64,000 nt of DNA from Ignavibacteriota bacterium (GTDB lineage: Bacteria > Bacteroidota > Ignavibacteria > UBA10030): NCBI GenBank assembly GCA_963701295.1, contig OY969585.1, positions 2,432,001-2,496,000 of the forward strand, in the 5' to 3' direction. The position numbers and the translations under genes were made by a program. Positions 32,712 to 58,459 of this stretch are shown here, piece by piece (positions within the stretch are counted from its first letter, which is position 1; the number at the start of each line of letters is the position of its first letter). Under the pieces are notes generated by a model, which saw only the letters and a program-made list of their open reading frames with translations, was not told the DNA's origin and did no database searches.

Positions 32712-32827
32712 TTTGGCTGCAGACCTAGCAGTCTCTCAAATAATTTATTCATGTTAGGCTGCAATATGCAGTCTAACACTCAAAAAAGCGTATTAGGCTG
32801 CGGTATGCAGTCTAATCAGAGTTAGGC
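32712..32827 (+). other. Candidate attI site
   Basis: Simple site GTCTAAT-CAGA-GTTAGGC (crossover G|TT at 32821) preceded by palindromic direct repeats at 32712, 32753 and 32792; no attC arm upstream. Confidence 0.7.
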
Positions 32828-42399: not shown

Positions 42400-42655
42400 A
42401 GTTCTTTAACATTAAGGACGACCGAATCCGTGCCGATGCCGCGTTCTCTATCGAATAGACAGGCGATTACCAGAGCAATGCCGTCCAAACCAGTTTACGG
42501 ATTTACATTCACTCATTGAAGAAACGATGGTGAAAGCGTATCTCGTCGAGCGAGATGTTCCAGATATTACCACGGCACAGCGCACTCTCTTCCCAATCCA
42601 GCGAACGATCCCGACGCAGTCGGGATCAGTTAGGAAAGCGGGCTTGAGAGGCGCG
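42400..42655 (-). ncRNA. Bridge (seek) RNA, copy 1; ends approximate
   Basis: Guide segments matching the attC target (42629-34, 42598-603) and the IS circle junction (42563-72, 42490-97) sit in two stem-closed internal loops. Confidence 0.8.
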
Positions 42656-43631
42656 GCCACTGCTGAGATTTATGCCGGCTGATCGGCTGACCTTTGAGAC
42701 CTTTATATATTGTTTTGTTTTTTAAGACATAGTAAACAATCTTCGCAAGTTCTTTGGCAACGACGGTTCGCGCAGTCGCCTCATTGGAGCGACGAGCTAA
42801 TTTCTGGAATAAGCGTTTGTATTCCGGATAGTACTGAATAGCATGAACAGCGGCATCGGAGAAGGCGATTTTGAGATACTTATTGCCGTCTTTGCTGGAG
42901 CGATGGTGCACAGAGCGATTGGAGTTATCGGCAGCAGGGACGAGTCGGCAGTAAGAGACAAACTTTTTATCGGAGTCGAATCGTTCAATGCCGTCGATTT
43001 CAAGATACACCGTGAATGCGGTGAGCTTGCCGATACCTGGAATGTGCAAGAGCCGTTGAATATCGTCGTTGGGAATCAGCACAGGATGGAGAGATTTTTC
43101 CAGCGAGAGGATCTGAGCAGTAAAAGTGTCTCTGGTATGTTGCAAGACAGCAAGTTGAAAACGATACGGATCCGGAACAGAGCCGTTAAATTTGGTCTGA
43201 ATACTGTAGAGACGCAGAAGACTGGCAGTTCGTTGCTGAACGAGCCGTAGACGAATACGCATGGTATCGCGCAGGCCGCGTAGTTCTCGGCTGATTTTGT
43301 GAGCCCGTGGAATGAGTCCCTGTCGTAAGAGAAGAGCAAGAGTTTGCGAATCGACTTTATCTGTTTTAACTTTAGCATAACTGATGGCTTTGAGATATTT
43401 GGCGTGAGCAAGGACAAGCTCGATGCCGTGATCGCTGAGAAGATCGTTGAGCCAGTACCATCCTGTGGTAGACTCAACGACTGCGTGATGAGGACCGGGC
43501 AGAGAGTGGAAGTAATCAAGAACACGTTCATTGTTATTCTCGACACGTTGTCGCTTGATGACAGCACCAGTGTCATCAACAGTGGTGATAAAACAATTAT
43601 CAGAATGCAAATCGATACCTGAGTAATACAT
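42630..43631 (-). CDS. IS110-family DEDD recombinase/transposase
   Basis: MYYSGIDLH, VVESTT, KTDKVDS, IPGIG, catalytic-Ser region DNSN; AAGGAG RBS. Confidence 0.95.
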   Translation of the reverse strand: MYYSGIDLHSDNCFITTVDDTGAVIKRQRVENNNERVLDYFHSLPGPHHAVVESTTGWYWLNDLLSDHGIELVLAHAKYLKAISYAKVKTDKVDSQTLALLLRQGLIPRAHKISRELRGLRDTMRIRLRLVQQRTASLLRLYSIQTKFNGSVPDPYRFQLAVLQHTRDTFTAQILSLEKSLHPVLIPNDDIQRLLHIPGIGKLTAFTVYLEIDGIERFDSDKKFVSYCRLVPAADNSNRSVHHRSSKDGNKYLKIAFSDAAVHAIQYYPEYKRLFQKLARRSNEATARTVVAKELAKIVYYVLKNKTIYKGLKGQPISRHKSQQWPRLSSPLS

Positions 43632-43888
43632 GGGAATCTCCTTAGATTGTGGATGTTGGTGACCTAGAGAATTATCAATGTACATAATCGGGAGATTCCT
43701 TTTTGGTAATATCCAGCGGCTCAAGCTGACCGGATGAGCGTTGGTGCGTTAAGCATGGCGAGCATAGGTTTCGGTTCTTAATAATAAACTTTTCAGCGTG
43801 AACTTGTTTCGTTTGGTACATTTTGAAAGTATTCAGCGCGGCAGCTTAGCCGCCATCCGTTAGCTGCCACCACAAATAAGAGGATATT

Positions 43889-44927: not shown

Positions 44928-45082
44928 GCCTAACCAGCGGCTCAAGCTGACCGAATGAGCGTTGGTACGTTAAGCATGGCGTACAGAGGTCAGTACAAAA
45001 TTGAAATAACCAGCGTGAACTCATTTCGTTGGGTACATATTGAAAGTTGGTCACGCGGCAGCTTAGCCGCAGTCCGTTAGGC
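44928..45082 (+). repeat. attC 12
   Basis: GCCTAAC...GTTAGGC. Confidence 0.9.
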
Positions 45083-45131
45083 GCCCAAAAAGAGATACAC
45101 CTAAAAACATAATTATAATTTGAGGAGATAT

Positions 45132-46067
45132 ATGAAATTATTTAATGCTTTAATTCTTTCCGCGATTGCCTTTTTAGGCACGAGTTGCACTCCACCAACT
45201 ACGACAGTGCGTACGGACGCGCTTGTTATGAATATTCGTTCTTTTGATTGTTCATTAAACGATCAATTTTTGACTTTTGAAAATGATACAGTCAGAATCG
45301 TTTACGTGCTTTGGGCAGAACGTGGAAAGTTGAATATCTATATTCATAATAAATTATCAAAGCCTCTATACATTGATTGGAAGAAATGTTCATATATAAC
45401 TGGAAGCACCAAGCATGATTATTGGCAAGAGACAACTACTTTTGTTACAAATAATTCATCATCTTCTTTTGTTAGTGGATATTCTATTACAGATTTCCTT
45501 TTTAAACAATATCATTCTAAATTAAAAGGTTCTTCCAATGCCTTATCATATAGTTCTACGAGTACTTCTGGTACCTCAATAACGCGCATAGAAAAGCCTG
45601 AACGCATAACATTTATACCACCAGGTACAACTATTGCAGTTGGTCTTTTTACATTGTACGAAAATGATAATATCAACATTCCGACGAATCAATATATTTC
45701 AAATGACACAACCGTAATAGTGAAGAGTCAAGTCGTTAAAGTCACACGGACATATAAGCTTAGACCAGATCGTACTTATCAAGATGATTCACTTGTAAAT
45801 GGACCAGTAAAAGTGAGATTATCCTATATTAATTATGATTTAGAAAATTCACCATTCTCTTTCCGGTCATTTATTACTTATTCAACAGATGAAAAATTTC
45901 TAGCAGAAGCATATGCAAATAATTCTTTCTATTTAGCTCGTATCACACAAATGCCTATTTCTACATTTGAGTTAAAAGCATCTGCAGATTCAACAAGCCA
46001 GGATGATAGAAGTATGTGGGCAGACTCCAGGTCTTTCTATGTATTTAGAAATATTGAAATTAAGTAG
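45132..46067 (+). CDS. Cassette: hypothetical lipoprotein
   Basis: GAGGAG RBS; lipobox GTSC. Confidence 0.8.
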   Translation: MKLFNALILSAIAFLGTSCTPPTTTVRTDALVMNIRSFDCSLNDQFLTFENDTVRIVYVLWAERGKLNIYIHNKLSKPLYIDWKKCSYITGSTKHDYWQETTTFVTNNSSSSFVSGYSITDFLFKQYHSKLKGSSNALSYSSTSTSGTSITRIEKPERITFIPPGTTIAVGLFTLYENDNINIPTNQYISNDTTVIVKSQVVKVTRTYKLRPDRTYQDDSLVNGPVKVRLSYINYDLENSPFSFRSFITYSTDEKFLAEAYANNSFYLARITQMPISTFELKASADSTSQDDRSMWADSRSFYVFRNIEIK

Positions 46068-46082
46068 TAATATATTTTGGGC

Positions 46083-46240
46083 GCCTAACCAGCAACTCAA
46101 GCTGACAGAATGAGCGTGTTGCGTTAAGCATGGCTAATAGAGGTTCAGATGTTTAATAATAAACTTATCAGCGTGAACTTGTTTCGTTTTCAGCAACTTG
46201 CGGGTTATCAGTGCCGCAGCTTAGTTGCCATCCGTTAGGC
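46083..46240 (+). repeat. attC 13
   Basis: GCCTAAC...GTTAGGC. Confidence 0.9.
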
Positions 46241-46547
46241 TGCACAGGCAGCGCGCTTTGTGTGAGTTGTGTTTTAAAGTATTGTGGTTACCTATTTGGG
46301 TTTTATATTTCTTTCTACTGGCAAAAGTTTCTAAGGGCGAAGTGCAGACTAAAATGTTGGTTGCTTTCTATACGGTTACGTTGTCAACAAGTTTTGATTT
46401 GAACGAGAATAAAAAAGCAGTGCAAGTTAAGTTCCAAAAAGCATCTCGGTGATGCGCTGCCTGTGCTCAGAAAAATTCGAGTTATGAAAGAGTCGGAATA
46501 TTTTGTCTATGAAGAAAGTTTGTACAACAAAGTAACAATAGCCTAAC
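46234..46547. other. Gene-less cassette A (structured, candidate ncRNA)
   Basis: No credible ORF; 13-bp stem 46242-46254/46454-46466. Confidence 0.7.
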
Positions 46548-46700
46548 CAGGCACTCAAGCTGACGGTTGCCAGCTGGGTGCAATTAACATGGCTAAGCAT
46601 AGGGTCTGGTGCAAATGATAAAACTTTCGTTGTGGGACTTGTTTCGTTGGTTGCATGACGAAAGTTATCAACGCCGCAGCTTAGTGCCCGTCCGTTATGT
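46541..46700 (+). repeat. attC 14
   Basis: GCCTAAC...GTTATGT. Confidence 0.9.
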
Positions 46701-46983
46701 TGCACAGGCAGCGCACACAGTATGTGTTACTTGCGGGGTTGGGTAATCGCGTTCTAACGGCTTTAAGTTTTAGTTACATTGTACAGATTTAGATTTTGGT
46801 TGCTTTCTATAAGTTACGTTGTCAACAAGTTTTGTTTTGTACGAGAATAAAAGCAGTGCAAGTTAAGTTCCTCAAAAGAATCTCGGCGATGCGCTGCCTG
46901 TGCTCAGAATAATTAAAGTTTTTTTGGTGTTAGCAAGTATTGTTTTGTTGAAAGTTTGTACAACAAAGAAACTATAACATAAC
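46694..46983. other. Gene-less cassette B (homolog of A)
   Basis: 14-bp stem 46702-46715/46890-46903; shares a conserved core with A. Confidence 0.7.
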
Positions 46984-47136
46984 CAGCAACTCAAGCTGAC
47001 GGTTGGAACGTGGGATTTAAATTCATGGCGCTAAACACACGTTATTATTATGGCGCGAATATAGACGTGTGGCTTGGTTCGTTGATTGCATGACTCGTAA
47101 TTATCAACGCCGCAGCTTAGCGCCGGTCCGTTAGGC
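46977..47136 (+). repeat. attC 15 (chimeric arms)
   Basis: ACATAAC...GTTAGGC; left arm CAACTCAAG does not match right arm CTTAGCGCC. Confidence 0.85.
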
Positions 47137-47776: not shown

Positions 47777-48032
47777 AGTTCTTTAACATTAAGGACGACC
47801 GAATCCGTGCCGATGCCGCGTTCTCTATCGAATAGACAGGCGATTACCAGAGCAATGCCGTCCAAACCAGTTTACGGATTTACATTCACTCATTGAAGAA
47901 ACGATGGTGAAAGCGTATCTCGTCGAGCGAGATGTTCCAGATATTACCACGGCACAGCGCACTCTCTTCCCAATCCAGCGAACGATCCCGACGCAGTCGG
48001 GATCAGTTAGGAAAGCGGGCTTGAGAGGCGCG
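47777..48032 (-). ncRNA. Bridge (seek) RNA, copy 2; ends approximate
   Basis: Same sequence as copy 1. Confidence 0.8.
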
Positions 48033-49008
48033 GCCACTGCTGAGATTTATGCCGGCTGATCGGCTGACCTTTGAGACCTTTATATATTGTTTTGTTTTTT
48101 AAGACATAGTAAACAATCTTCGCAAGTTCTTTGGCAACGACGGTTCGCGCAGTCGCCTCATTGGAGCGACGAGCTAATTTCTGGAATAAGCGTTTGTATT
48201 CCGGATAGTACTGAATAGCATGAACAGCGGCATCGGAGAAGGCGATTTTGAGATACTTATTGCCGTCTTTGCTGGAGCGATGGTGCACAGAGCGATTGGA
48301 GTTATCGGCAGCAGGGACGAGTCGGCAGTAAGAGACAAACTTTTTATCGGAGTCGAATCGTTCAATGCCGTCGATTTCAAGATACACCGTGAATGCGGTG
48401 AGCTTGCCGATACCTGGAATGTGCAAGAGCCGTTGAATATCGTCGTTGGGAATCAGCACAGGATGGAGAGATTTTTCCAGCGAGAGGATCTGAGCAGTAA
48501 AAGTGTCTCTGGTATGTTGCAAGACAGCAAGTTGAAAACGATACGGATCCGGAACAGAGCCGTTAAATTTGGTCTGAATACTGTAGAGACGCAGAAGACT
48601 GGCAGTTCGTTGCTGAACGAGCCGTAGACGAATACGCATGGTATCGCGCAGGCCGCGTAGTTCTCGGCTGATTTTGTGAGCCCGTGGAATGAGTCCCTGT
48701 CGTAAGAGAAGAGCAAGAGTTTGCGAATCGACTTTATCTGTTTTAACTTTAGCATAACTGATGGCTTTGAGATATTTGGCGTGAGCAAGGACAAGCTCGA
48801 TGCCGTGATCGCTGAGAAGATCGTTGAGCCAGTACCATCCTGTGGTAGACTCAACGACTGCGTGATGAGGACCGGGCAGAGAGTGGAAGTAATCAAGAAC
48901 ACGTTCATTGTTATTCTCGACACGTTGTCGCTTGATGACAGCACCAGTGTCATCAACAGTGGTGATAAAACAATTATCAGAATGCAAATCGATACCTGAG
49001 TAATACAT
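48007..49008 (-). CDS. IS110-family DEDD recombinase/transposase
   Basis: Protein identical to copy 1 in the ORF track. Confidence 0.95.
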   Translation of the reverse strand: MYYSGIDLHSDNCFITTVDDTGAVIKRQRVENNNERVLDYFHSLPGPHHAVVESTTGWYWLNDLLSDHGIELVLAHAKYLKAISYAKVKTDKVDSQTLALLLRQGLIPRAHKISRELRGLRDTMRIRLRLVQQRTASLLRLYSIQTKFNGSVPDPYRFQLAVLQHTRDTFTAQILSLEKSLHPVLIPNDDIQRLLHIPGIGKLTAFTVYLEIDGIERFDSDKKFVSYCRLVPAADNSNRSVHHRSSKDGNKYLKIAFSDAAVHAIQYYPEYKRLFQKLARRSNEATARTVVAKELAKIVYYVLKNKTIYKGLKGQPISRHKSQQWPRLSSPLS

Positions 49009-49267
49009 GGGAATCTCCTTAGATTGTGGATGTTGGTGACCTAGAGAATTATCAATGTACATAATCGGGAGATTCCTTTTTGGTAATATCCAGCAACTCA
49101 AGCTGACCAAATGAGCGTGTTACGTTAAGCATGGCGTGTAGAGGTTTGGATGTTTAATAATAAACTTTTCAGCATGAACTTGTTTCGTTTTCAGCAACTT
49201 GTGGCTTTTCGTTGCCGCAGCTTAGTTGCCATCCGTTAGGCGGCAATAATAATGAAAGGATTCTATA

Positions 49268-49744: not shown

Positions 49745-49896
49745 CCAGCGGCTCAAGCTGACCGGATGAGCGTGGTACGTTAAGCATGGCTTGTAGAGGT
49801 TTTGGTTTTTAATAATAAACTTTTCAGCATGAACTTGTTTCGTTTAGTTTATTTTGAAAATTATCAGTGCGGCAGCTTAGCCGCTATCCGTTAGGC
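49739..49896 (+). repeat. attC 17
   Basis: GCCTAAC...GTTAGGC. Confidence 0.9.
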
Positions 49897-50088
49897 GGCG
49901 CGGTCGGTGCGCGCAGTAAAATGTTTATTAAGATGGTTTCGTTTTAAATTATTTCTTCGTGGTGTTTAATAAATAAGTACAGTAAAGTTTTGTTTGCACC
50001 GCCCGCGCTCGTTTGTTGGATGGTAAAAATAAAACGGAATAATTGTTTAGTTAAAATTGTTCATCGCAAAATTAAAGTATCGCCTAAC
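49890..50088. other. Gene-less cassette C
   Basis: No ORF of 60 aa or more; 12/13-bp stem 49898-49910/49996-50008. Confidence 0.7.
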
Positions 50089-50266: not shown

Positions 50267-53251
50267 ATGAGGCATTTATTAATATTATTAGTATTGCTAT
50301 CTATTTATATAGCCAGATCACAAACTCTGTCACTTCAAAAAGCATACCTATCATTTCCGGCTACGGGACAGCCGTATTGTATTACACATACGGATCTTAA
50401 TCACGATGGAATCGAAGATATTATTTCTGGTAATGCAGGTGGTATAAATGTGTCCGTTTTCTATGGGAGCAGAACAGCTCCCTATTATCAATCTGCTCGA
50501 CCTTTTGGAGATTCGATAAATACCGTTAGTTGTATAACAACAGGGGATATTAATCAAGATGGTTGGCCGGATATTGTGTATGGAACATACAATCTTATTC
50601 AAGATACAGTAAGCAATAAAGTGATAATATTGCAATCGTCATCCGGTGGATTAAATTTTAATCAAACTCTAGAATTCTCGTTTACCGAAAAACCAAATGC
50701 AATTTCTATCTTTGATGTTAATGAAGATTCACTTAACGATATTGTTGTTGCTCATGGTCATACGATTTCAATCTATACAGCTTCAACTACTGCAGGGCAA
50801 TTTAATTCACCTATAAATATCATTTTAACATTATCTGATTCAGCTTCTTCAATCAAATATGCCGCTATACAACAAATGCGTGCTATTGACATGAATGGAG
50901 ATGGATACAAAGACTTAGTAGTTACCGATGGGTCTAGTTTGTATGTACTTACATTAATAAAAAGTTTCCCATATTTATCTTTGCATGCACAATTTAGTAT
51001 TCCCCTTCATCAGAATGAGACCGGTCAAGATTTTGCAGTAGGGGACATTAACAATGATGGAACTAATGATGTTGTTGTCCTTTGCCGGCAAATGTATGCC
51101 GATAGTGTAGCAGTGTTCTTTAATGATGGCAAGGGAATTCTTTCTTTCAATAAAAAATATGTCTTGGGTCCACCAAATACTGATCTCGGTGAAAATCATA
51201 TTGTTCTAGCGGATCTGAATAATGACAATCGCCTTGATATTGCAACATCTAATATGTTATACACAGGGCAAAAACCAATGATAAGTGTTATGTTACAAGA
51301 TCCCAATTCGTTTGGATTTCTGCCTAGCACTCAATATGTATTGGATGCAACAAGCATAGATTTAATCATAGTTGATGCAAATAACGACGGCAATAAAGAT
51401 ATTGTTACTGTAGATCCAGATAACGCAGATATAGCACTTGTGCTTGCCAATAAAACACCGGGTGACTATTCTTCCATTGAATATTTCAATGTCCCTTTTG
51501 TACCATTTGCCATTACTTCTGGAGACATAAATTGCGATGGATATCCAGATATTATTACAACTGGTTGGGGTGATACAACTGGTGATAACTATCTCTCTCT
51601 TATACTCTCAGCAAATCAATCCGATAAATTTGATTCACCAAAGAATTTGCTCCTATCGCATACTATGTATGATCCATCAGCACGAAAGATAGAAACTGCT
51701 GATATTAATAATGATAGTTTACTTGACGTTGTTATAAGCTACCTTCTTATTCCTGGAATTCTCACTCTTCCAGGATCTGGCACAGCTGATCTATTTAATT
51801 TAGGTAGTTACTGGCCAACATCAGGCCAAGCAAATGATGATTTTGGAATTTTCGATATCGATCAGAATGATACTACAGACATTATTGTGAATAATTCAAG
51901 AAACTTCGACATAGAATACTTAAAAGGAGAGGGTAGCGGTATTTTTGATTTACCCAAAACATTATTTAGTGATACTCTAAAATCTAAATTTACCATCTGT
52001 GATGTAAATCGAGATGGTAGATTGGATATAGTTGCCCTAGAAGGAGATAATCTCGTAAGTTATGTCAATAAAGGGAACGACATATTTGATAAAGTAATAA
52101 GTAAAAGCATAAACAAGACTGTTGTAGATATGATTGCGATTGATCTCAATGGAGACGGCAATCCAGATATTGTTATTGCATTTGGCGACAACTCACAGAC
52201 ACTCGTTGTCCAGTTAGCAAGTGATTCTCTGGGTCATTTTAGTCCTCCAATTTCATTAACGGTTCCAGGACACCAAGGGACCCATAATGTGGGAATTGCG
52301 GATATGAATGGAGATGGTCTTCTAGATATCGTTACTGAGACCTTTTCAGATATTTGTGTTTTCACTGCTCTTCCTGGAGGTGGATTTTCAAGTCCATTAT
52401 TATTTCCAACTGGTACAGGAGAATGGAAATTATGTATAGACGATTTTAATGGTGATCTAAAACCCGATGTTTGCATTTGTAATGGATTCTTGGTTAAATA
52501 TGTTAAGAACTTGACTCCTGGTACTCCATCTGGGGTGATAACAAAAGCTTATATTAATTCCCCGTCAATACAGACCCCTTTCTACTTTTCAACAGGCAAC
52601 ATAAATCGATTCGGTAAGGTTATATTAGACAATTATGATGGATCGACCATCGCTATCCGAACTCACTCGGCTGCACAACCGCCAAATGTTTCGACACAAA
52701 GTAAAGTAGTTAAACGTTATTATGAAATATCGACTAATGGAAAGATTTCATCCGGTCAAATCACATTACCGTATGAATTGAGTGAAGTATCCATCGTAGG
52801 GCTAAAACCTAAGGGATTGCATTTATTTCATTATATGAACGGCGTATGGCAACTTGAACAAAGCAAAGTCAACATTGCAAATCAAACTCTTACGGCATTA
52901 ACAATTAAACTAGATGGAATCTGGGTTATGTGTGATCCAAACGATCATCCAATAACAGAGGTATTTAATGGCAATACAAACCTACCATATAAATGTTCAC
53001 TGTTACAAAACTATCCTAACCCTTTTAATCCATCCACAACTTTTTCTTTTAGTCTTGCATCAAAATCTTTTGTGTCGCTGAAAGTATTTGATATGTTAGG
53101 AAGGGAAGTTGCAATCATTATCTCAGAAGATATGTCAGCAGGAAGTTACACGCGTGAATGGAACGCAACAAATATTTCAAGTGGTGTCTACTTTTATCGT
53201 TTGCAGGCAGGTCTATTCACAGAAACCAAGAAATTGATTTTATTACGTTAA
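50267..53251 (+). CDS. Cassette: FG-GAP/VCBS repeat protein with T9SS C-terminal domain
   Basis: Many D.N.DG..D repeats; QNYPNPFNP tail. Confidence 0.9.
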   Translation: MRHLLILLVLLSIYIARSQTLSLQKAYLSFPATGQPYCITHTDLNHDGIEDIISGNAGGINVSVFYGSRTAPYYQSARPFGDSINTVSCITTGDINQDGWPDIVYGTYNLIQDTVSNKVIILQSSSGGLNFNQTLEFSFTEKPNAISIFDVNEDSLNDIVVAHGHTISIYTASTTAGQFNSPINIILTLSDSASSIKYAAIQQMRAIDMNGDGYKDLVVTDGSSLYVLTLIKSFPYLSLHAQFSIPLHQNETGQDFAVGDINNDGTNDVVVLCRQMYADSVAVFFNDGKGILSFNKKYVLGPPNTDLGENHIVLADLNNDNRLDIATSNMLYTGQKPMISVMLQDPNSFGFLPSTQYVLDATSIDLIIVDANNDGNKDIVTVDPDNADIALVLANKTPGDYSSIEYFNVPFVPFAITSGDINCDGYPDIITTGWGDTTGDNYLSLILSANQSDKFDSPKNLLLSHTMYDPSARKIETADINNDSLLDVVISYLLIPGILTLPGSGTADLFNLGSYWPTSGQANDDFGIFDIDQNDTTDIIVNNSRNFDIEYLKGEGSGIFDLPKTLFSDTLKSKFTICDVNRDGRLDIVALEGDNLVSYVNKGNDIFDKVISKSINKTVVDMIAIDLNGDGNPDIVIAFGDNSQTLVVQLASDSLGHFSPPISLTVPGHQGTHNVGIADMNGDGLLDIVTETFSDICVFTALPGGGFSSPLLFPTGTGEWKLCIDDFNGDLKPDVCICNGFLVKYVKNLTPGTPSGVITKAYINSPSIQTPFYFSTGNINRFGKVILDNYDGSTIAIRTHSAAQPPNVSTQSKVVKRYYEISTNGKISSGQITLPYELSEVSIVGLKPKGLHLFHYMNGVWQLEQSKVNIANQTLTALTIKLDGIWVMCDPNDHPITEVFNGNTNLPYKCSLLQNYPNPFNPSTTFSFSLASKSFVSLKVFDMLGREVAIIISEDMSAGSYTREWNATNISSGVYFYRLQAGLFTETKKLILLR

Positions 53252-53261
53252 GGTAATTGCG

Positions 53262-53420
53262 CCCTAACCAGGCGCTCAAGCTGACGGAATAAGCGTGGTA
53301 CTATTTAACATTGCGTGCAAAGTTTTTGATGTTTAATAATTCATTTATCAGCGTGAACTCAGTTCGTTGGTCGCAATACGAAACTTATCAGCGCCGCAGC
53401 TTAGCGCCGGTCCGTTAGGC
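53262..53420 (+). repeat. attC 19
   Basis: CCCTAAC...GTTAGGC. Confidence 0.9.
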
Positions 53421-53432
53421 AGCGGGTAAAAG

Positions 53433-53801
53433 ATGAAACTCAACATCACAAATAGCACAGAAAGATTTGATAATACAAAATTCTCCAACGAGATAGTCGA
53501 TGGACAGAGTCTTCCGCTGTTCAGTACGTACACATGTCCGCGTTGTCATGAAAAGATTGGGTTCACGAAAGAAGATTTTGAAAAGAGGTCGATGCTAAAC
53601 TTCTCTAACCTTTCGTTGGATATTCAATCACAGTTCGGGAATTGGGCTGAGAAAAACGACATGAAACATCATCATTTTCTCGATTGGAGTTGTCCAAAGT
53701 GCTATCTCCCAGCGCGCGTGTACATACAACATTAGGCTGGGGGGAGACATGGTGATGCGGGAGTTAATTTGTTAAGTGTTCTAGAAATCACAGAGAAATA
53801 A
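53433..53801 (+). pseudogene. Cassette: Zn-binding hypothetical with in-frame TAG at 53733
   Basis: CPRC/CPKC; frame continues AGGRHGDAGVNLLSVLEITEK to a TAA abutting the attC. Confidence 0.6.
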
Positions 53802-53807
53802 CCCGCT

Positions 53808-53965
53808 GCCTAACCCGCGGCTCAAGCTGACCGGATGAGCGCACTGCAAAATTCATGGCGTGCAACGGTCTGGATGTAATTTGAAAGCAATCTACTTGGA
53901 ACTCGGTTCGTTTAGTACTATTTTGAAAATTATCAGTGCGGCAGCTTAGCCGCCATCCGTTATGT
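53808..53965 (+). repeat. attC 20
   Basis: GCCTAAC...GTTATGT. Confidence 0.9.
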
Positions 53966-54248
53966 TGCACAGGCAGCGCACACAGTATGTGTTACTTGCG
54001 GGGTTGGGTAATCGCGTTCTAACGGCTTTAAGTTTTAGTTACATTGTACAGATTTAGATTTTGGTTGCTTTCTATAAGTTACGTTGTCAACAAGTTTTGT
54101 TTTGTACGAGAATAAAAGCAGTGCAAGTTAAGTTCCTCAAAAGAATCTCGGCGATGCGCTGCCTGTGCTCAGAATAATTAAAGTTTTTTTGGTGTTAGCA
54201 AGTATTGTTTTGTTGAAAGTTTGTACAACAAAGAAACTATAACATAAC
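53959..54248. other. Gene-less cassette B' (duplicate of 46694-46983)
   Basis: Appears identical to B, including most of its attC. Confidence 0.8.
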
Positions 54249-56338: not shown

Positions 56339-58459
56339 ATGAAAAAAACATCCCTTTTTCTTTTGTTGTTATTTAATATTTCTTTTCTGAATTCTAAAAA
56401 TTTTATGTGGAAGCAAACAAACGGGCCACAAGGTGGATCCATTGCAACAATTTGTTTTGTTGATAGCATTGTTTTTGTCGGAGGAGTAGGTGGTGTATTT
56501 AAAAGTACTATCGATGGGGATTATTGGAAATTTATGGGACTTCCTAATGTTGAAGTTAAAAAAATTGTTGTCAGTGGAAATATATTGTTTGCCGGAACAG
56601 CACGTAATGGAGTTTATTTTAGTAAAGATTATGGAACGAGTTGGGAAGAAAACAAAAATAGTTCTTCAGATTTTGGTAATATTGTTGATATGGCAGTAAA
56701 GGATACCTTTATTTTTGTTGCCACTAATGGATATGGAATATTCAGAAGGTCATTGTCTGATTCAAATTGGTCGGCTGTAAATACCGGCATTGATAACTTA
56801 AATTTCAAGACAATCATTGTAAGTAACGATGTTATTATCGCTTCTGCAGCAGGTGCGTCTGGTTCGGGTATGTTTCGAAGCACCAATAACGGTGAACAAT
56901 GGAAAAGAGTCGATCCTAATCCATATGCATGGATGGCGGACGCAATCTGTAAATACAATGATACGCTCTATGCTGCGAGGTTTTCAAACCAGGCGAAAGT
57001 TTACATCAGCATTGACGATGGTCTAACCTGGTTACTTCCTTCGGCAGCGTCTCCACCCAATGACATTATTACAAATTTATATGCGGATAAATCTGGACTT
57101 TACGCAGGTATATACAACAACGGGGTCTATCGCTCTACAAACGGAGGAATAAGTTGGGCAAATTTAAATACTGGTCTCTATAATTTATCACCGACTCAAT
57201 TAAATGGTAAGGACGGACTCATTTATTATGGATCTTATGATGGTATCAAAATCTCATCAGACTATGGTACAACATGGCAAACCAAAAATTTTGAACTAAA
57301 CAATAGTTCAGTATCGTGTATTAATTCGATTGGGCAATACACGTTTGCTGGTACTAATGGTGCTGGATTGTTTTATACTTCTGATCTTGGCGCGTCCTGG
57401 AAACAAACAATTAATTCCAATGTTTTTCCATTTGTAAAGAATATTATAAATGTCAATGATACGATCTTTTTAGTCTCAAGCGATTGGACATATGATTGCA
57501 AAGTCATCATGAGTAGTGATAGTGGGTCTTCATGGGTTCAACGTAATAACGGTATTGACGGAGGTGAAATTACTTCTATTGCTTGGTCTAAAGGGTTTTT
57601 ATACGCAAGCACATCATATGGACTTTTTAAGAGTAGCAATAGAGGATTACAATGGACGTTATTGACAAATGGATTGCCAAATAATGGACGGCCAAACGTA
57701 TCAAGTGTTGCTGCGATGGACTCTTTTGTAGTAGCAGCAAATGGAGAAAATCAAATTTATCGAAGCATTGATGCAGGAGAGCACTGGACTGCGGTTTCTG
57801 TACCAGATCAGCTTACTCCTCCGATCATAAAGGTTTCTGTAGTGGATACAGTTATCTATGCTGGTTGTTCAGAAGTGAATGTGGTATTTAATAGTTATGA
57901 TAAAGGCGCAACATGGAGGCCATTTAATATTCCATACTTCAACGGAAATGTTGAAGATATTACTGGAAATAAGGATTCTTTATTTATTGCAGTAACTTAT
58001 TCTGGAATCATAGCACAGTGTGGCAATGTTGGTGCAAAATTAATTAGTTCAGATATCATGAATCCTGATATCAGAAGTGTTTACTACTCAAATGGAAGAC
58101 TTTGGGTAGGTACCTGGGGATCTGGAATTTTTAGAAATATCGATTCCTCTGAAGTCACGTATAGTCCTTCAACAAGCGATCCAACAAATTTTCCTAAATC
58201 GATTGTACTCAAACAAAATTATCCCAACCCTTTTAATCCATCAACAACGATATCATTTTCATTACCTGCGAAAGCAGTTGTATCGTTGAAAATATATGAC
58301 ATAATAGGAAGAGATATAGAAACACTTGTTTTCAAAGAATTGTCTGCTGGGATTCATTCAGTACAATGGAACGCCAAGAGATTGACAAGTGGAATTTACT
58401 TCTATCGCTTACAAACTGCTTCATTTGTTCAGACAAAGAAGTTGTTATTATTAAAATAA
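56339..58459 (+). CDS. Cassette: BNR/Asp-box beta-propeller protein with T9SS C-terminal domain
   Basis: Repeated S.D.G.(T/S)W motifs; QNYPNPFNP tail. Confidence 0.9.
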   Translation: MKKTSLFLLLLFNISFLNSKNFMWKQTNGPQGGSIATICFVDSIVFVGGVGGVFKSTIDGDYWKFMGLPNVEVKKIVVSGNILFAGTARNGVYFSKDYGTSWEENKNSSSDFGNIVDMAVKDTFIFVATNGYGIFRRSLSDSNWSAVNTGIDNLNFKTIIVSNDVIIASAAGASGSGMFRSTNNGEQWKRVDPNPYAWMADAICKYNDTLYAARFSNQAKVYISIDDGLTWLLPSAASPPNDIITNLYADKSGLYAGIYNNGVYRSTNGGISWANLNTGLYNLSPTQLNGKDGLIYYGSYDGIKISSDYGTTWQTKNFELNNSSVSCINSIGQYTFAGTNGAGLFYTSDLGASWKQTINSNVFPFVKNIINVNDTIFLVSSDWTYDCKVIMSSDSGSSWVQRNNGIDGGEITSIAWSKGFLYASTSYGLFKSSNRGLQWTLLTNGLPNNGRPNVSSVAAMDSFVVAANGENQIYRSIDAGEHWTAVSVPDQLTPPIIKVSVVDTVIYAGCSEVNVVFNSYDKGATWRPFNIPYFNGNVEDITGNKDSLFIAVTYSGIIAQCGNVGAKLISSDIMNPDIRSVYYSNGRLWVGTWGSGIFRNIDSSEVTYSPSTSDPTNFPKSIVLKQNYPNPFNPSTTISFSLPAKAVVSLKIYDIIGRDIETLVFKELSAGIHSVQWNAKRLTSGIYFYRLQTASFVQTKKLLLLK

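What the first reader, a model, noticed from the sequence alone, without database searches (positions are those of the whole stretch)
46234..46983. Family of gene-less cassettes with conserved sequence inside a long-range stem
Seen: cassettes A (46234-46547), B (46694-46983) and B' (53959-54248) lack credible ORFs. They share GCACAGGCAGCGC right after R' pairing with GCGCTGCCTGTGC about 190-210 nt later, a conserved roughly 100-nt core (TTGGTTGCTTTCTATA..GTTACGTTGTCAACAAGTTTTG...GCAGTGCAAGTTAAGTTCC) with small indels, and a conserved tail GAAAGTTTGTACAACAAAG, while other parts diverge. Known: ORF-less cassettes occur in other integrons with mostly unknown function. Inference: a mobile structured ncRNA or ssDNA element (regulatory RNA, decoy, promoter cassette or cassette-building scaffold).
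Basis: partly seen in the sequence, partly recalled or inferred. Interest (0 to 1): 0.8.

Follow-up and report, generated by a model that had tools for sequence, protein, structure and literature searches.

The report
Clamped gene-less integron cassette superfamily
These gene-free DNA units are real mobile integron cassettes built around a conserved 13-base-pair clamp that likely works on single-stranded DNA to help them spread, and a sister branch wraps the same frame around unrelated genes, which may help show how bacteria package genes into cassettes.

Summary
Observation confirmed, with corrections. A, B and B' are gene-less cassettes of a chromosomal integron; B and B' are identical. The genome holds 8 copies, and I collected 50 distinct homologs. 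They belong to a wider set (76 sequences, six families, two genera) sharing one frame: 8-bp paired ends, a 13-bp GC stem at nt 9-21, a free loop (33-4,030 nt), and a right arm 79-87 nt from the end. The stem covaries. The 'core' does not covary and is only moderately conserved. I found no conserved peptide, Rfam match, reverse transcriptase or conserved sigma-70 promoter, so a structured ncRNA is not supported. One family carries unrelated genes (restriction-modification, lipoproteins, unknowns) inside the same frame. Best reading (0.5, inferred): a single-stranded-DNA clamp that holds the cassette's ends together and favours self-propagation. Copies are duplicated (6/13 against 0/93), clustered, and often first behind attI. 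Gene-less cassettes are a known kind; I did not find the frame or its cargo branch in the papers searched. The scan already reported this family elsewhere in this genome (e1-7611664) and a similar clamp in another genome (e1-9797590). No function was tested.

The parts
46234..46547 (+). Gene-less cassette A (family F1, 314 bp, crossover GTT to TAAC)
   Evidence: identical copy at G000:C1:3166342-3166655
46234..46241 (+). R' box plus 1 nt; complementary to 46540-46547 (8-bp end duplex)
   Evidence: sequence; columns 5 and 7 covary
46242..46254 (+). Left arm of the 13-bp clamp of A
46255..46453 (+). Loop of A (199 nt, T/G-rich on top strand; no conserved pairing or ORF)
46454..46466 (+). Right arm of the clamp of A
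46467..46539 (+). Fixed-length tail of A (73 nt; 71-79 nt in 75 of 76 members)
46083..46240 (+). attC upstream of A
46541..46700 (+). attC of A
46694..46983 (+). Gene-less cassette B (F1, 290 bp); arms 46702-46714 and 46891-46903
46977..47136 (+). attC of B
53959..54248 (+). Gene-less cassette B' (identical to B); arms 53967-53979 and 54156-54168
49890..50088 (+).
32753..32827 (+). attI-type site heading this array; near-identical to the site beside the genome's only intI

Best explanation
A, B and B' are gene-less integron cassettes of a clamped-cassette superfamily whose 13-bp stem likely forms on the single-stranded (probably bottom) strand and is predicted to hold the cassette's own two ends together, which would favour its re-insertion and spread as a largely selfish unit. 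Shown: the frame (8-bp end duplex, 13-bp stem directly stacked on it, tail of 71-79 nt, loop of any length), its covariation, exact-boundary copies in several arrays, and a sister family carrying unrelated genes in the loop. Inferred: in ssDNA the stem extends the short end duplex to about 21 bp, standing in for the 10-16-bp end repeats that most gene cassettes of this genome have, with the tail looped out. The integrase would meet a well-paired crossover whatever the loop holds, so the short empty forms are copied to new attI/attC sites more often than gene cassettes. Not explained: why the tail keeps its length, and why 22 loop positions are invariant in F1.
For: Frame: 12 of 13 hits of a motif-free genome scan are these cassettes; shuffled genomes gave 1 and 2 hits. 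In 76 distinct members of six families, 941 of 988 stem cells are Watson-Crick, with alternative pair types at positions 1, 3, 5, 6, 9, 11 and 13; the right arm ends 79-87 nt from the end in 75 of 76, while loops run 33-4,030 nt. Strand: internal stem mismatches are A.C on top (G.T on bottom) in 9 distinct arm types and G.T on top in 1 (p 0.02). Folding model of attC-cassette-attC on the bottom strand: the clamp forms with P 1.0, and pairing of the cassette's own R boxes averages 0.65 against 0.27 with the right arm shuffled, higher in 10 of 11 contexts. A natural 125-bp member lacks the tail and has a 21-bp end repeat with one mismatch, as expected if the tail loops out of that fold. Mobility in G000: 6 of 13 clamped cassettes have a copy at 97% identity or more, against 0 of 93 others; 4 adjacent clamped pairs against 1.06 expected (p 0.013); 2 of 7 attI-proximal cassettes are clamped. 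Across sources, 10 of 73 with visible upstream DNA follow attI. attC recombines as folded bottom-strand ssDNA, and short cassettes excise more readily in some settings (PMC5371416, passages).
Against: In an opened-circle model attC folds nearly as well without the clamp (median R pairing 0.99 against 0.98). The full cross-cassette ('inside-out') site forms only at 0.22 against 0.13, so own-end pairing could as well hinder excision. These are equilibrium models with 1-3 shuffles each, and several of the 11 contexts hold identical cassettes. The strand bias is reversed at the terminal pair (G.T 7, A.C 1) and absent from gene-cassette end duplexes (G.T 9, A.C 6, other 12); mutation bias could contribute. 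Short length alone could explain the duplication. attI-proximal cassettes may assemble more easily than mid-array ones. Within F1 alone the stem's covarying pair did not pass my tree-based null (E about 2). No recombination was measured.
Confidence: 0.5

Rival explanations
1. Gene-packaging vector: the frame is a device by which new DNA is wrapped into a cassette; F1-F4 and F6 are empty forms and F5 the loaded form.
For: Seven complete F5 cassettes (745-4,148 bp, five genomes) share about 67 nt of left end and 165 nt of right end, in six of them with an inner 17-bp inverted repeat, around different genes. Among 12 cargo proteins only one pair is related. Homologs of one cargo (methylase plus MvaI/BcnI nuclease region, 62-73% DNA identity) in 10 loci of other families have no F5 ends or attC match. 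F5 tails resemble F2 tails (median z 3.1). Unrelated ordinary cassettes also share end 11-mers (52 pairs against 12.4 expected). De novo cassette formation is described as largely unknown (PMC5371416).
Against: None of 50 F1 members, nor any F2-F4 or F6 member found, holds a gene. No empty F5 was seen in genomes or RNA contigs. F5 cargo joins at the inner repeat, which the empty families lack. No donor was close enough to map a junction. Shared end 11-mers do not go with shared attC type (p 0.67).
Confidence: 0.17
2. Regulatory or decoy RNA closed by the 13-bp stem, as with the cassette-encoded sRNA-Xcc1.
For: Homologs are present as contigs in RNA libraries of three peat studies. 22 of 175 loop columns are invariant in 49 sequences. 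The top strand has the lower folding energy.
Against: No interior covariation (RNAalifold finds only short marginal helices inside). No Rfam match. Loops of the families differ, and the stem also encloses multi-kb genes. RNA contigs run through the right arm into the tail (records 3 and 22). Internal mismatches disfavour a top-strand duplex. Contigs give no strand or ends and may include DNA.
Confidence: 0.13
3. Promoter or transcription-modulating cassette that re-starts or dampens transcription in the array, as shown for Vibrio and Treponema gene-less cassettes.
For: Most tested Vibrio gene-less cassettes had promoter activity (10.1101/2023.11.21.568050, passages), as did some oral ones (PMC6557892, passages). 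Here they often sit first in arrays, and the tail is promoter-sized.
Against: A sigma-70 model trained on this genome (TTG..-17-TAnnnT) scores 9 or more in 5 of 70 top strands and 7 of 70 bottom strands, at scattered places, against 28% of 1,070 gene-upstream regions. Top strands sit at the median 20th percentile of dinucleotide shuffles (the 70 include two mis-parsed duplicates dropped). It does not explain the stem. Alternative sigma factors were not modelled.
Confidence: 0.13
4. Invertible switch or recombinase site pair: the arms are crossover sites and the loop flips.
For: Inverted repeats 85-205 nt apart with matched changes in both arms. F5 inner flanks are A-rich where empty loops are T/G-rich.
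Against: All 8 own-genome and 11 congener F1 copies found by BLAST have one orientation. F5 keeps F2-like sequence before and after the right arm in the same orientation. No strand-changing joint among those listed (15 of 24 shown; 4). The metagenome pattern could only find one orientation.
Confidence: 0.04
5. A small conserved peptide is encoded.
For: A has an open 32-codon ATG frame through the core.
Against: Lengths fall in all three classes modulo 3 (9, 22, 18). The most shared start column is used by 29 of 49 sequences, with ORF lengths of 15-91 codons. The core is frameshifted between A and B.
Confidence: 0.03

Closest known systems
Paralogous non-coding cassettes of Vibrio chromosomal integrons (Boucher et al. 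2006, PMC1382264; passages read)
   Same: No ORF, full-length homologs only in close relatives, paralogs within arrays, proposed to be selfish or regulatory.
   Different: The paper has 0 occurrences of 'inverted repeat' or 'secondary structure'. Here there is a fixed internal stem and tail shared by families with dissimilar loops, and a gene-carrying sister family.
Promoter-bearing gene-less cassettes of Vibrionaceae (Blanco et al., 10.1101/2023.11.21.568050; passages) and of oral Treponema (PMC6557892; passages)
   Same: Gene-less cassettes with a normal attC inside large arrays.
   Different: No conserved sigma-70 promoter here and activity untested. No hairpin or inverted-repeat frame is mentioned in the passages searched.
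sRNA-Xcc1, cassette-encoded sRNA of Xanthomonas campestris (seen only as cited in PMC8876359 and PMC6557892)
   Same: Gene-less cassette that could yield an RNA.
   Different: No Rfam match, no interior covariation and no discrete transcript shown here.
Retron msr-msd (features recalled, not from a call)
   Same: About 200 nt enclosed by a 13-nt inverted repeat.
   Different: No reverse transcriptase in the genome, no conserved G after the stem, no conserved internal hairpin.
Non-autonomous passenger-gene carriers such as mobile insertion cassettes and MITE-derived composites (recalled)
   Same: F5 has fixed ends around variable genes.
   Different: The ends are integron crossover sites with attC; no copies of the empty families outside arrays; no transposase-type ends or target duplications seen.

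Membership tests
Integron gene cassette (gene-less type) | Unit bounded by R' (GTT) and R'' (AAC) and followed by an attC with paired L boxes | tested here: met
Integron gene cassette (gene-less type) | Array headed by attI, with an integron integrase in the genome | tested here: met
   attI-type site at 32753-32827; one TIGR02249 hit above cut-off, about 1.07 Mb from this array
Integron gene cassette (gene-less type) | Same unit at different places with exact boundaries | tested here: met
   8 copies in 3 arrays with different neighbours
Integron gene cassette (gene-less type) | Excision and insertion by the integrase | not testable with these tools
   needs a recombination assay
Promoter cassette (Vibrio/Treponema type) | Conserved match to the host's primary promoter consensus | tested here: not met
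Promoter cassette (Vibrio/Treponema type) | Measured promoter activity or transcription start | not testable with these tools
   only contigs were available
Structured cassette-encoded sRNA | Covarying interior structure or known RNA family | tested here: not met
Structured cassette-encoded sRNA | Discrete strand-specific transcript | tested here: inconclusive
   homologs in RNA contigs of 3 studies, no strand or ends, no silent-stretch control laid
Retron msr-msd | Cognate reverse transcriptase | tested here: not met
   0 PF00078 matches in G000, 99.3% complete
Retron msr-msd | Invariant branching G after the 5' arm and a conserved msd hairpin (recalled features) | tested here: not met
   the base after the arm varies (12 parsimony changes) and no hairpin covaries
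Invertible (phase-variable) segment | Both orientations occur | tested here: not met
   0 inverted among 19 BLAST-found copies; pattern searches were orientation-biased
MITE / mobile insertion cassette | Copies outside cassette arrays with target duplications | tested here: not met
   73 of 73 with visible upstream DNA follow attC, a degenerate attC or attI; one truncated F5 piece lies outside an array in G007

The most novel reading that the evidence does not exclude
The clamp-and-tail frame is a reusable gene-packaging vector of integrons: a self-propagating empty cassette whose ssDNA fold keeps the recombination ends together whatever lies in the loop, so that foreign genes (restriction-modification operons, lipoproteins) become cassettes by entering it. 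It would be a tractable model for how integron cassettes are created.
Probability: 0.22. Interest if true: 0.85.

Novelty: new variant of a known kind. Interest (0 to 1): 0.55.

Why it matters
Gene-less cassettes fill 6-49% of Vibrio arrays (PMC1382264) and are explained so far mainly as promoters. Here a lineage keeps a precise, covarying DNA frame rather than a promoter or RNA fold, which points to selection on recombination itself. The same frame around unrelated genes gives a concrete substrate for the open question of cassette genesis: its parts (stem, tail, inner repeat) can be mutated and assayed with the cognate integrase.

Tried and rejected
Rfam: nothing at gathering score in the window or six sister loci; two sub-threshold eukaryotic hits. 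Plasmid and phage collections: no match to B. Viral contigs: 7 pattern hits, none confirmed by the profile; two further scans empty. Of 88 metagenome pattern hits, 47 gave a profile hit; 3 of those were 34-39-nt chance-level matches and were dropped. Of 5 pattern matches outside the genus in 401 class genomes, 1 was real (G038) and 4 lacked a partner arm. One of 6 genome-contig hits was chance. Bacteroidetes-type promoter: not enriched in this genome. attC homology of loops or tails: only weak F2-tail hits, E 0.05-0.6. Most between-family tail comparisons were not significant. The cargo protein of the own-genome F5 has only 2 relatives and no Pfam family. RNA-run depth was not used to rank expression, and no silent-stretch control was laid; parts without cover mean nothing. 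A full circular folding run did not finish and was replaced by opened-circle models. Paper searches listed no paper that by title or abstract describes this frame; subscription journals are mostly not covered and supplements were not read. No covariance model was built, since no interior structure was supported.

Full report
Setting. The window is G000:C1:2432001-2496000 of a closed 3.64-Mb genome. Window proteins carry T9SS tails, and records of congeners are titled Ignavibacteriae. The genome has one integron integrase above cut-off, 177 attC-profile hits in several arrays, and seven arrays headed by a near-identical attI-type site. The array in the window starts at such a site (32753-32827).

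Observation. A, B and B' are as described. B and B' are identical, and the genome holds 8 copies of 5 distinct sequences in 3 arrays. A fourth gene-less cassette in the window (49890-50088) has a different sequence but the same layout.

Family F1. BLAST found homologs in 5 of 15 congeners and in none of the 85 other relatives searched. A metagenome pattern scan gave 88 loci; 44 hold real homologs, and each one with flanking DNA in view is bounded by attC or attI. After merging, 50 distinct full-length F1 sequences remained (243-316 bp, pairwise identity 63-98%, median 77%). No match was confirmed in plasmids, phages or viral contigs.

What is conserved. With a tree-based null of my own, only the end pair 5-286 covaries significantly; the first stem pair 9-210 ranks second (E about 2), and no interior pair shows consistent pairing. 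On 14 sequences the named structure (8-bp end duplex plus 13-bp stem) is 98.3% paired with four pairs changed on both sides, far above slid controls. The loop still holds 22 invariant columns of 175, which I cannot explain. Its top-strand composition (T 0.38, C 0.13) matches that of the attC variable region (T 0.36, C 0.14). No peptide is conserved, Rfam is empty, and the genome has no PF00078 reverse transcriptase.

Superfamily. A motif-free scan of the genome for 'GTT end 8-mer, 13-nt arm, partner 60-105 nt before the matching end' returned 12 gene-less cassettes and one chance hit; two shuffled genomes gave 1 and 2 hits. Pattern searches in relatives added more. The cleaned set has 76 distinct members (two mis-parsed duplicates dropped, one member added): F1 50, F2 6, F3 5, F4 6, F5 7, F6 2. 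F6 lies in another genus with a different attC sequence; it was the only real match among 5 outside the genus in 401 class genomes. 941 of 988 stem cells are Watson-Crick, with swapped pair types at seven positions. The right arm ends 79-87 nt before the cassette end in 75 of 76. The exception is a 125-bp member with no tail and a 21-bp terminal repeat. One further 185-bp F4-type cassette has lost part of its right arm and was left out of the set. Gene-less cassettes with plain end repeats and no clamp also occur.

Gene-carrying branch. The first cassette behind the attI at G000:C1:224158 (860 bp) has the frame with a 154-aa ORF in the loop. Its first 67 and last 165 nt recur around other DNA in six more complete cassettes from four other genomes (745-4,148 bp). 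Six of the seven have an inner 17-bp inverted repeat next to the cargo; G009's is degenerate. Cargoes include methylase and restriction-nuclease genes, a weak SieB-like hit, lipoprotein-like and unknown genes; among 12 cargo proteins only one pair is related. Homologs of one cargo in 10 loci of other families have neither F5 ends nor attC. A partial F5 lies at an assembly gap (G011:C40) and a truncated one outside an array (G007). An RNA-run contig carries the F5 right end on other DNA, and no empty F5 joint was seen.

Promoter test. The host uses TTG..-17-TAnnnT promoters. A model trained on 368 sites finds no shared site in the cassettes. Scores of 9 or more occur in 5 of 70 top and 7 of 70 bottom strands, against 28% of 1,070 gene-upstream regions, and top strands lie at the median 20th percentile of dinucleotide shuffles. 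Other sigma factors were not modelled. Published gene-less cassettes often show activity without clear cause (10.1101/2023.11.21.568050, passages), so this rival stays open.

RNA test. Five RNA runs from three peat studies hold small shares of the stretch. In the four laid, contigs cover cassette interiors, and two run through the right arm into the tail. Contigs give no strand, ends or level and may contain DNA; this shows presence only.

Mechanism. attC sites recombine as folded bottom-strand ssDNA (PMC5371416, PMC7439510; passages). 52 of the non-clamped cassettes among 87 parsed here have 10-16-bp end repeats; clamped ones have 8 bp plus the stacked stem. Internal stem mismatches favour G.T on the bottom strand 9 to 1, but the terminal pair shows the reverse and gene-cassette ends show no bias. 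In bottom-strand models of attC-cassette-attC the clamp always forms and raises own-end pairing from 0.27 to 0.65 (10 of 11 contexts), while a complete cross-cassette site rises only from 0.13 to 0.22. In opened-circle models it changes little. Mobility is higher: 6 of 13 against 0 of 93 have near-identical copies, 4 adjacent pairs against 1.06 expected, 2 of 7 first positions, and 10 of 73 overall follow attI. I commit to an ssDNA clamp that favours self-propagation (0.5). The steps from fold to higher recombination are inferred, and short length alone could give the same pattern.

Known and new. Genus-restricted, paralogous non-coding cassettes, proposed as selfish or regulatory, are described for Vibrio (PMC1382264, passages; review PMC8876359, passages). 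De novo cassette formation is called largely unknown (PMC5371416; PMC8352920, one passage). Eight searches listed nothing that by title or abstract describes this frame; I read only passages of seven papers and no supplements. Verdict: new variant of a known kind, interest 0.55; the gene-packaging reading has probability about 0.22 and would deserve 0.85.

Noticed in passing
window 32753-32827; G000:C1 near 224158, 1796959, 2834118, 3172060, 3446579, 3566456: Seven arrays around the chromosome each begin with a near-identical attI-type site, but only one has intI beside it: a dispersed multi-attI integron served in trans (inferred).
   Followed up: partly
window 42630-43724 and 48007-49110 (minus strand): Two IS110-family transposases, each inserted just after the R'' box of an attC, with about 300 nt of non-coding DNA beyond the gene's 3' end. 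Resembles attC-targeting IS1111-type elements (recalled); a guide-RNA region was not tested.
   Followed up: no
G000 gene cassettes, e.g. window 45076-46089 and 53414-53814: Most gene cassettes have 10-16-bp GC-rich complementary ends, and unrelated genes share the same first 11 nt more often than column shuffles give (52 pairs against 12.4).
   Followed up: partly
attC sites, e.g. window 46083-46240: attC sites are long (most 149-199 nt), with T/G-rich top-strand variable regions holding scattered conserved motifs and modular 35-40-nt insertions. The bottom strand had the lower folding energy in only 10 of 40.
   Followed up: partly
G000:C1:225026-261402: This array is oriented against the GC-skew pattern of the other large arrays, so its bottom strand would be the lagging-strand template.
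   Followed up: no
L124:1501-1625 (G005:C59): 125-bp tail-less F3 cassette with a 21-bp terminal inverted repeat.
   Followed up: partly
L202 (G007:C4:46460-47597, minus strand): Truncated F5 piece with a 295-aa ORF, between two non-cassette genes that look like restriction-modification genes and outside any array.
   Followed up: partly
L003:1977-2227, L034, L062, L223: Other gene-less T/G-rich cassettes (about 110-270 bp) with plain end repeats and no internal clamp.
   Followed up: no
window 50267-53251 and 56339-58459: Large secreted proteins with T9SS tails (FG-GAP repeats; BNR/sortilin-like) carried as single cassettes of 2-3 kb.
   Followed up: no
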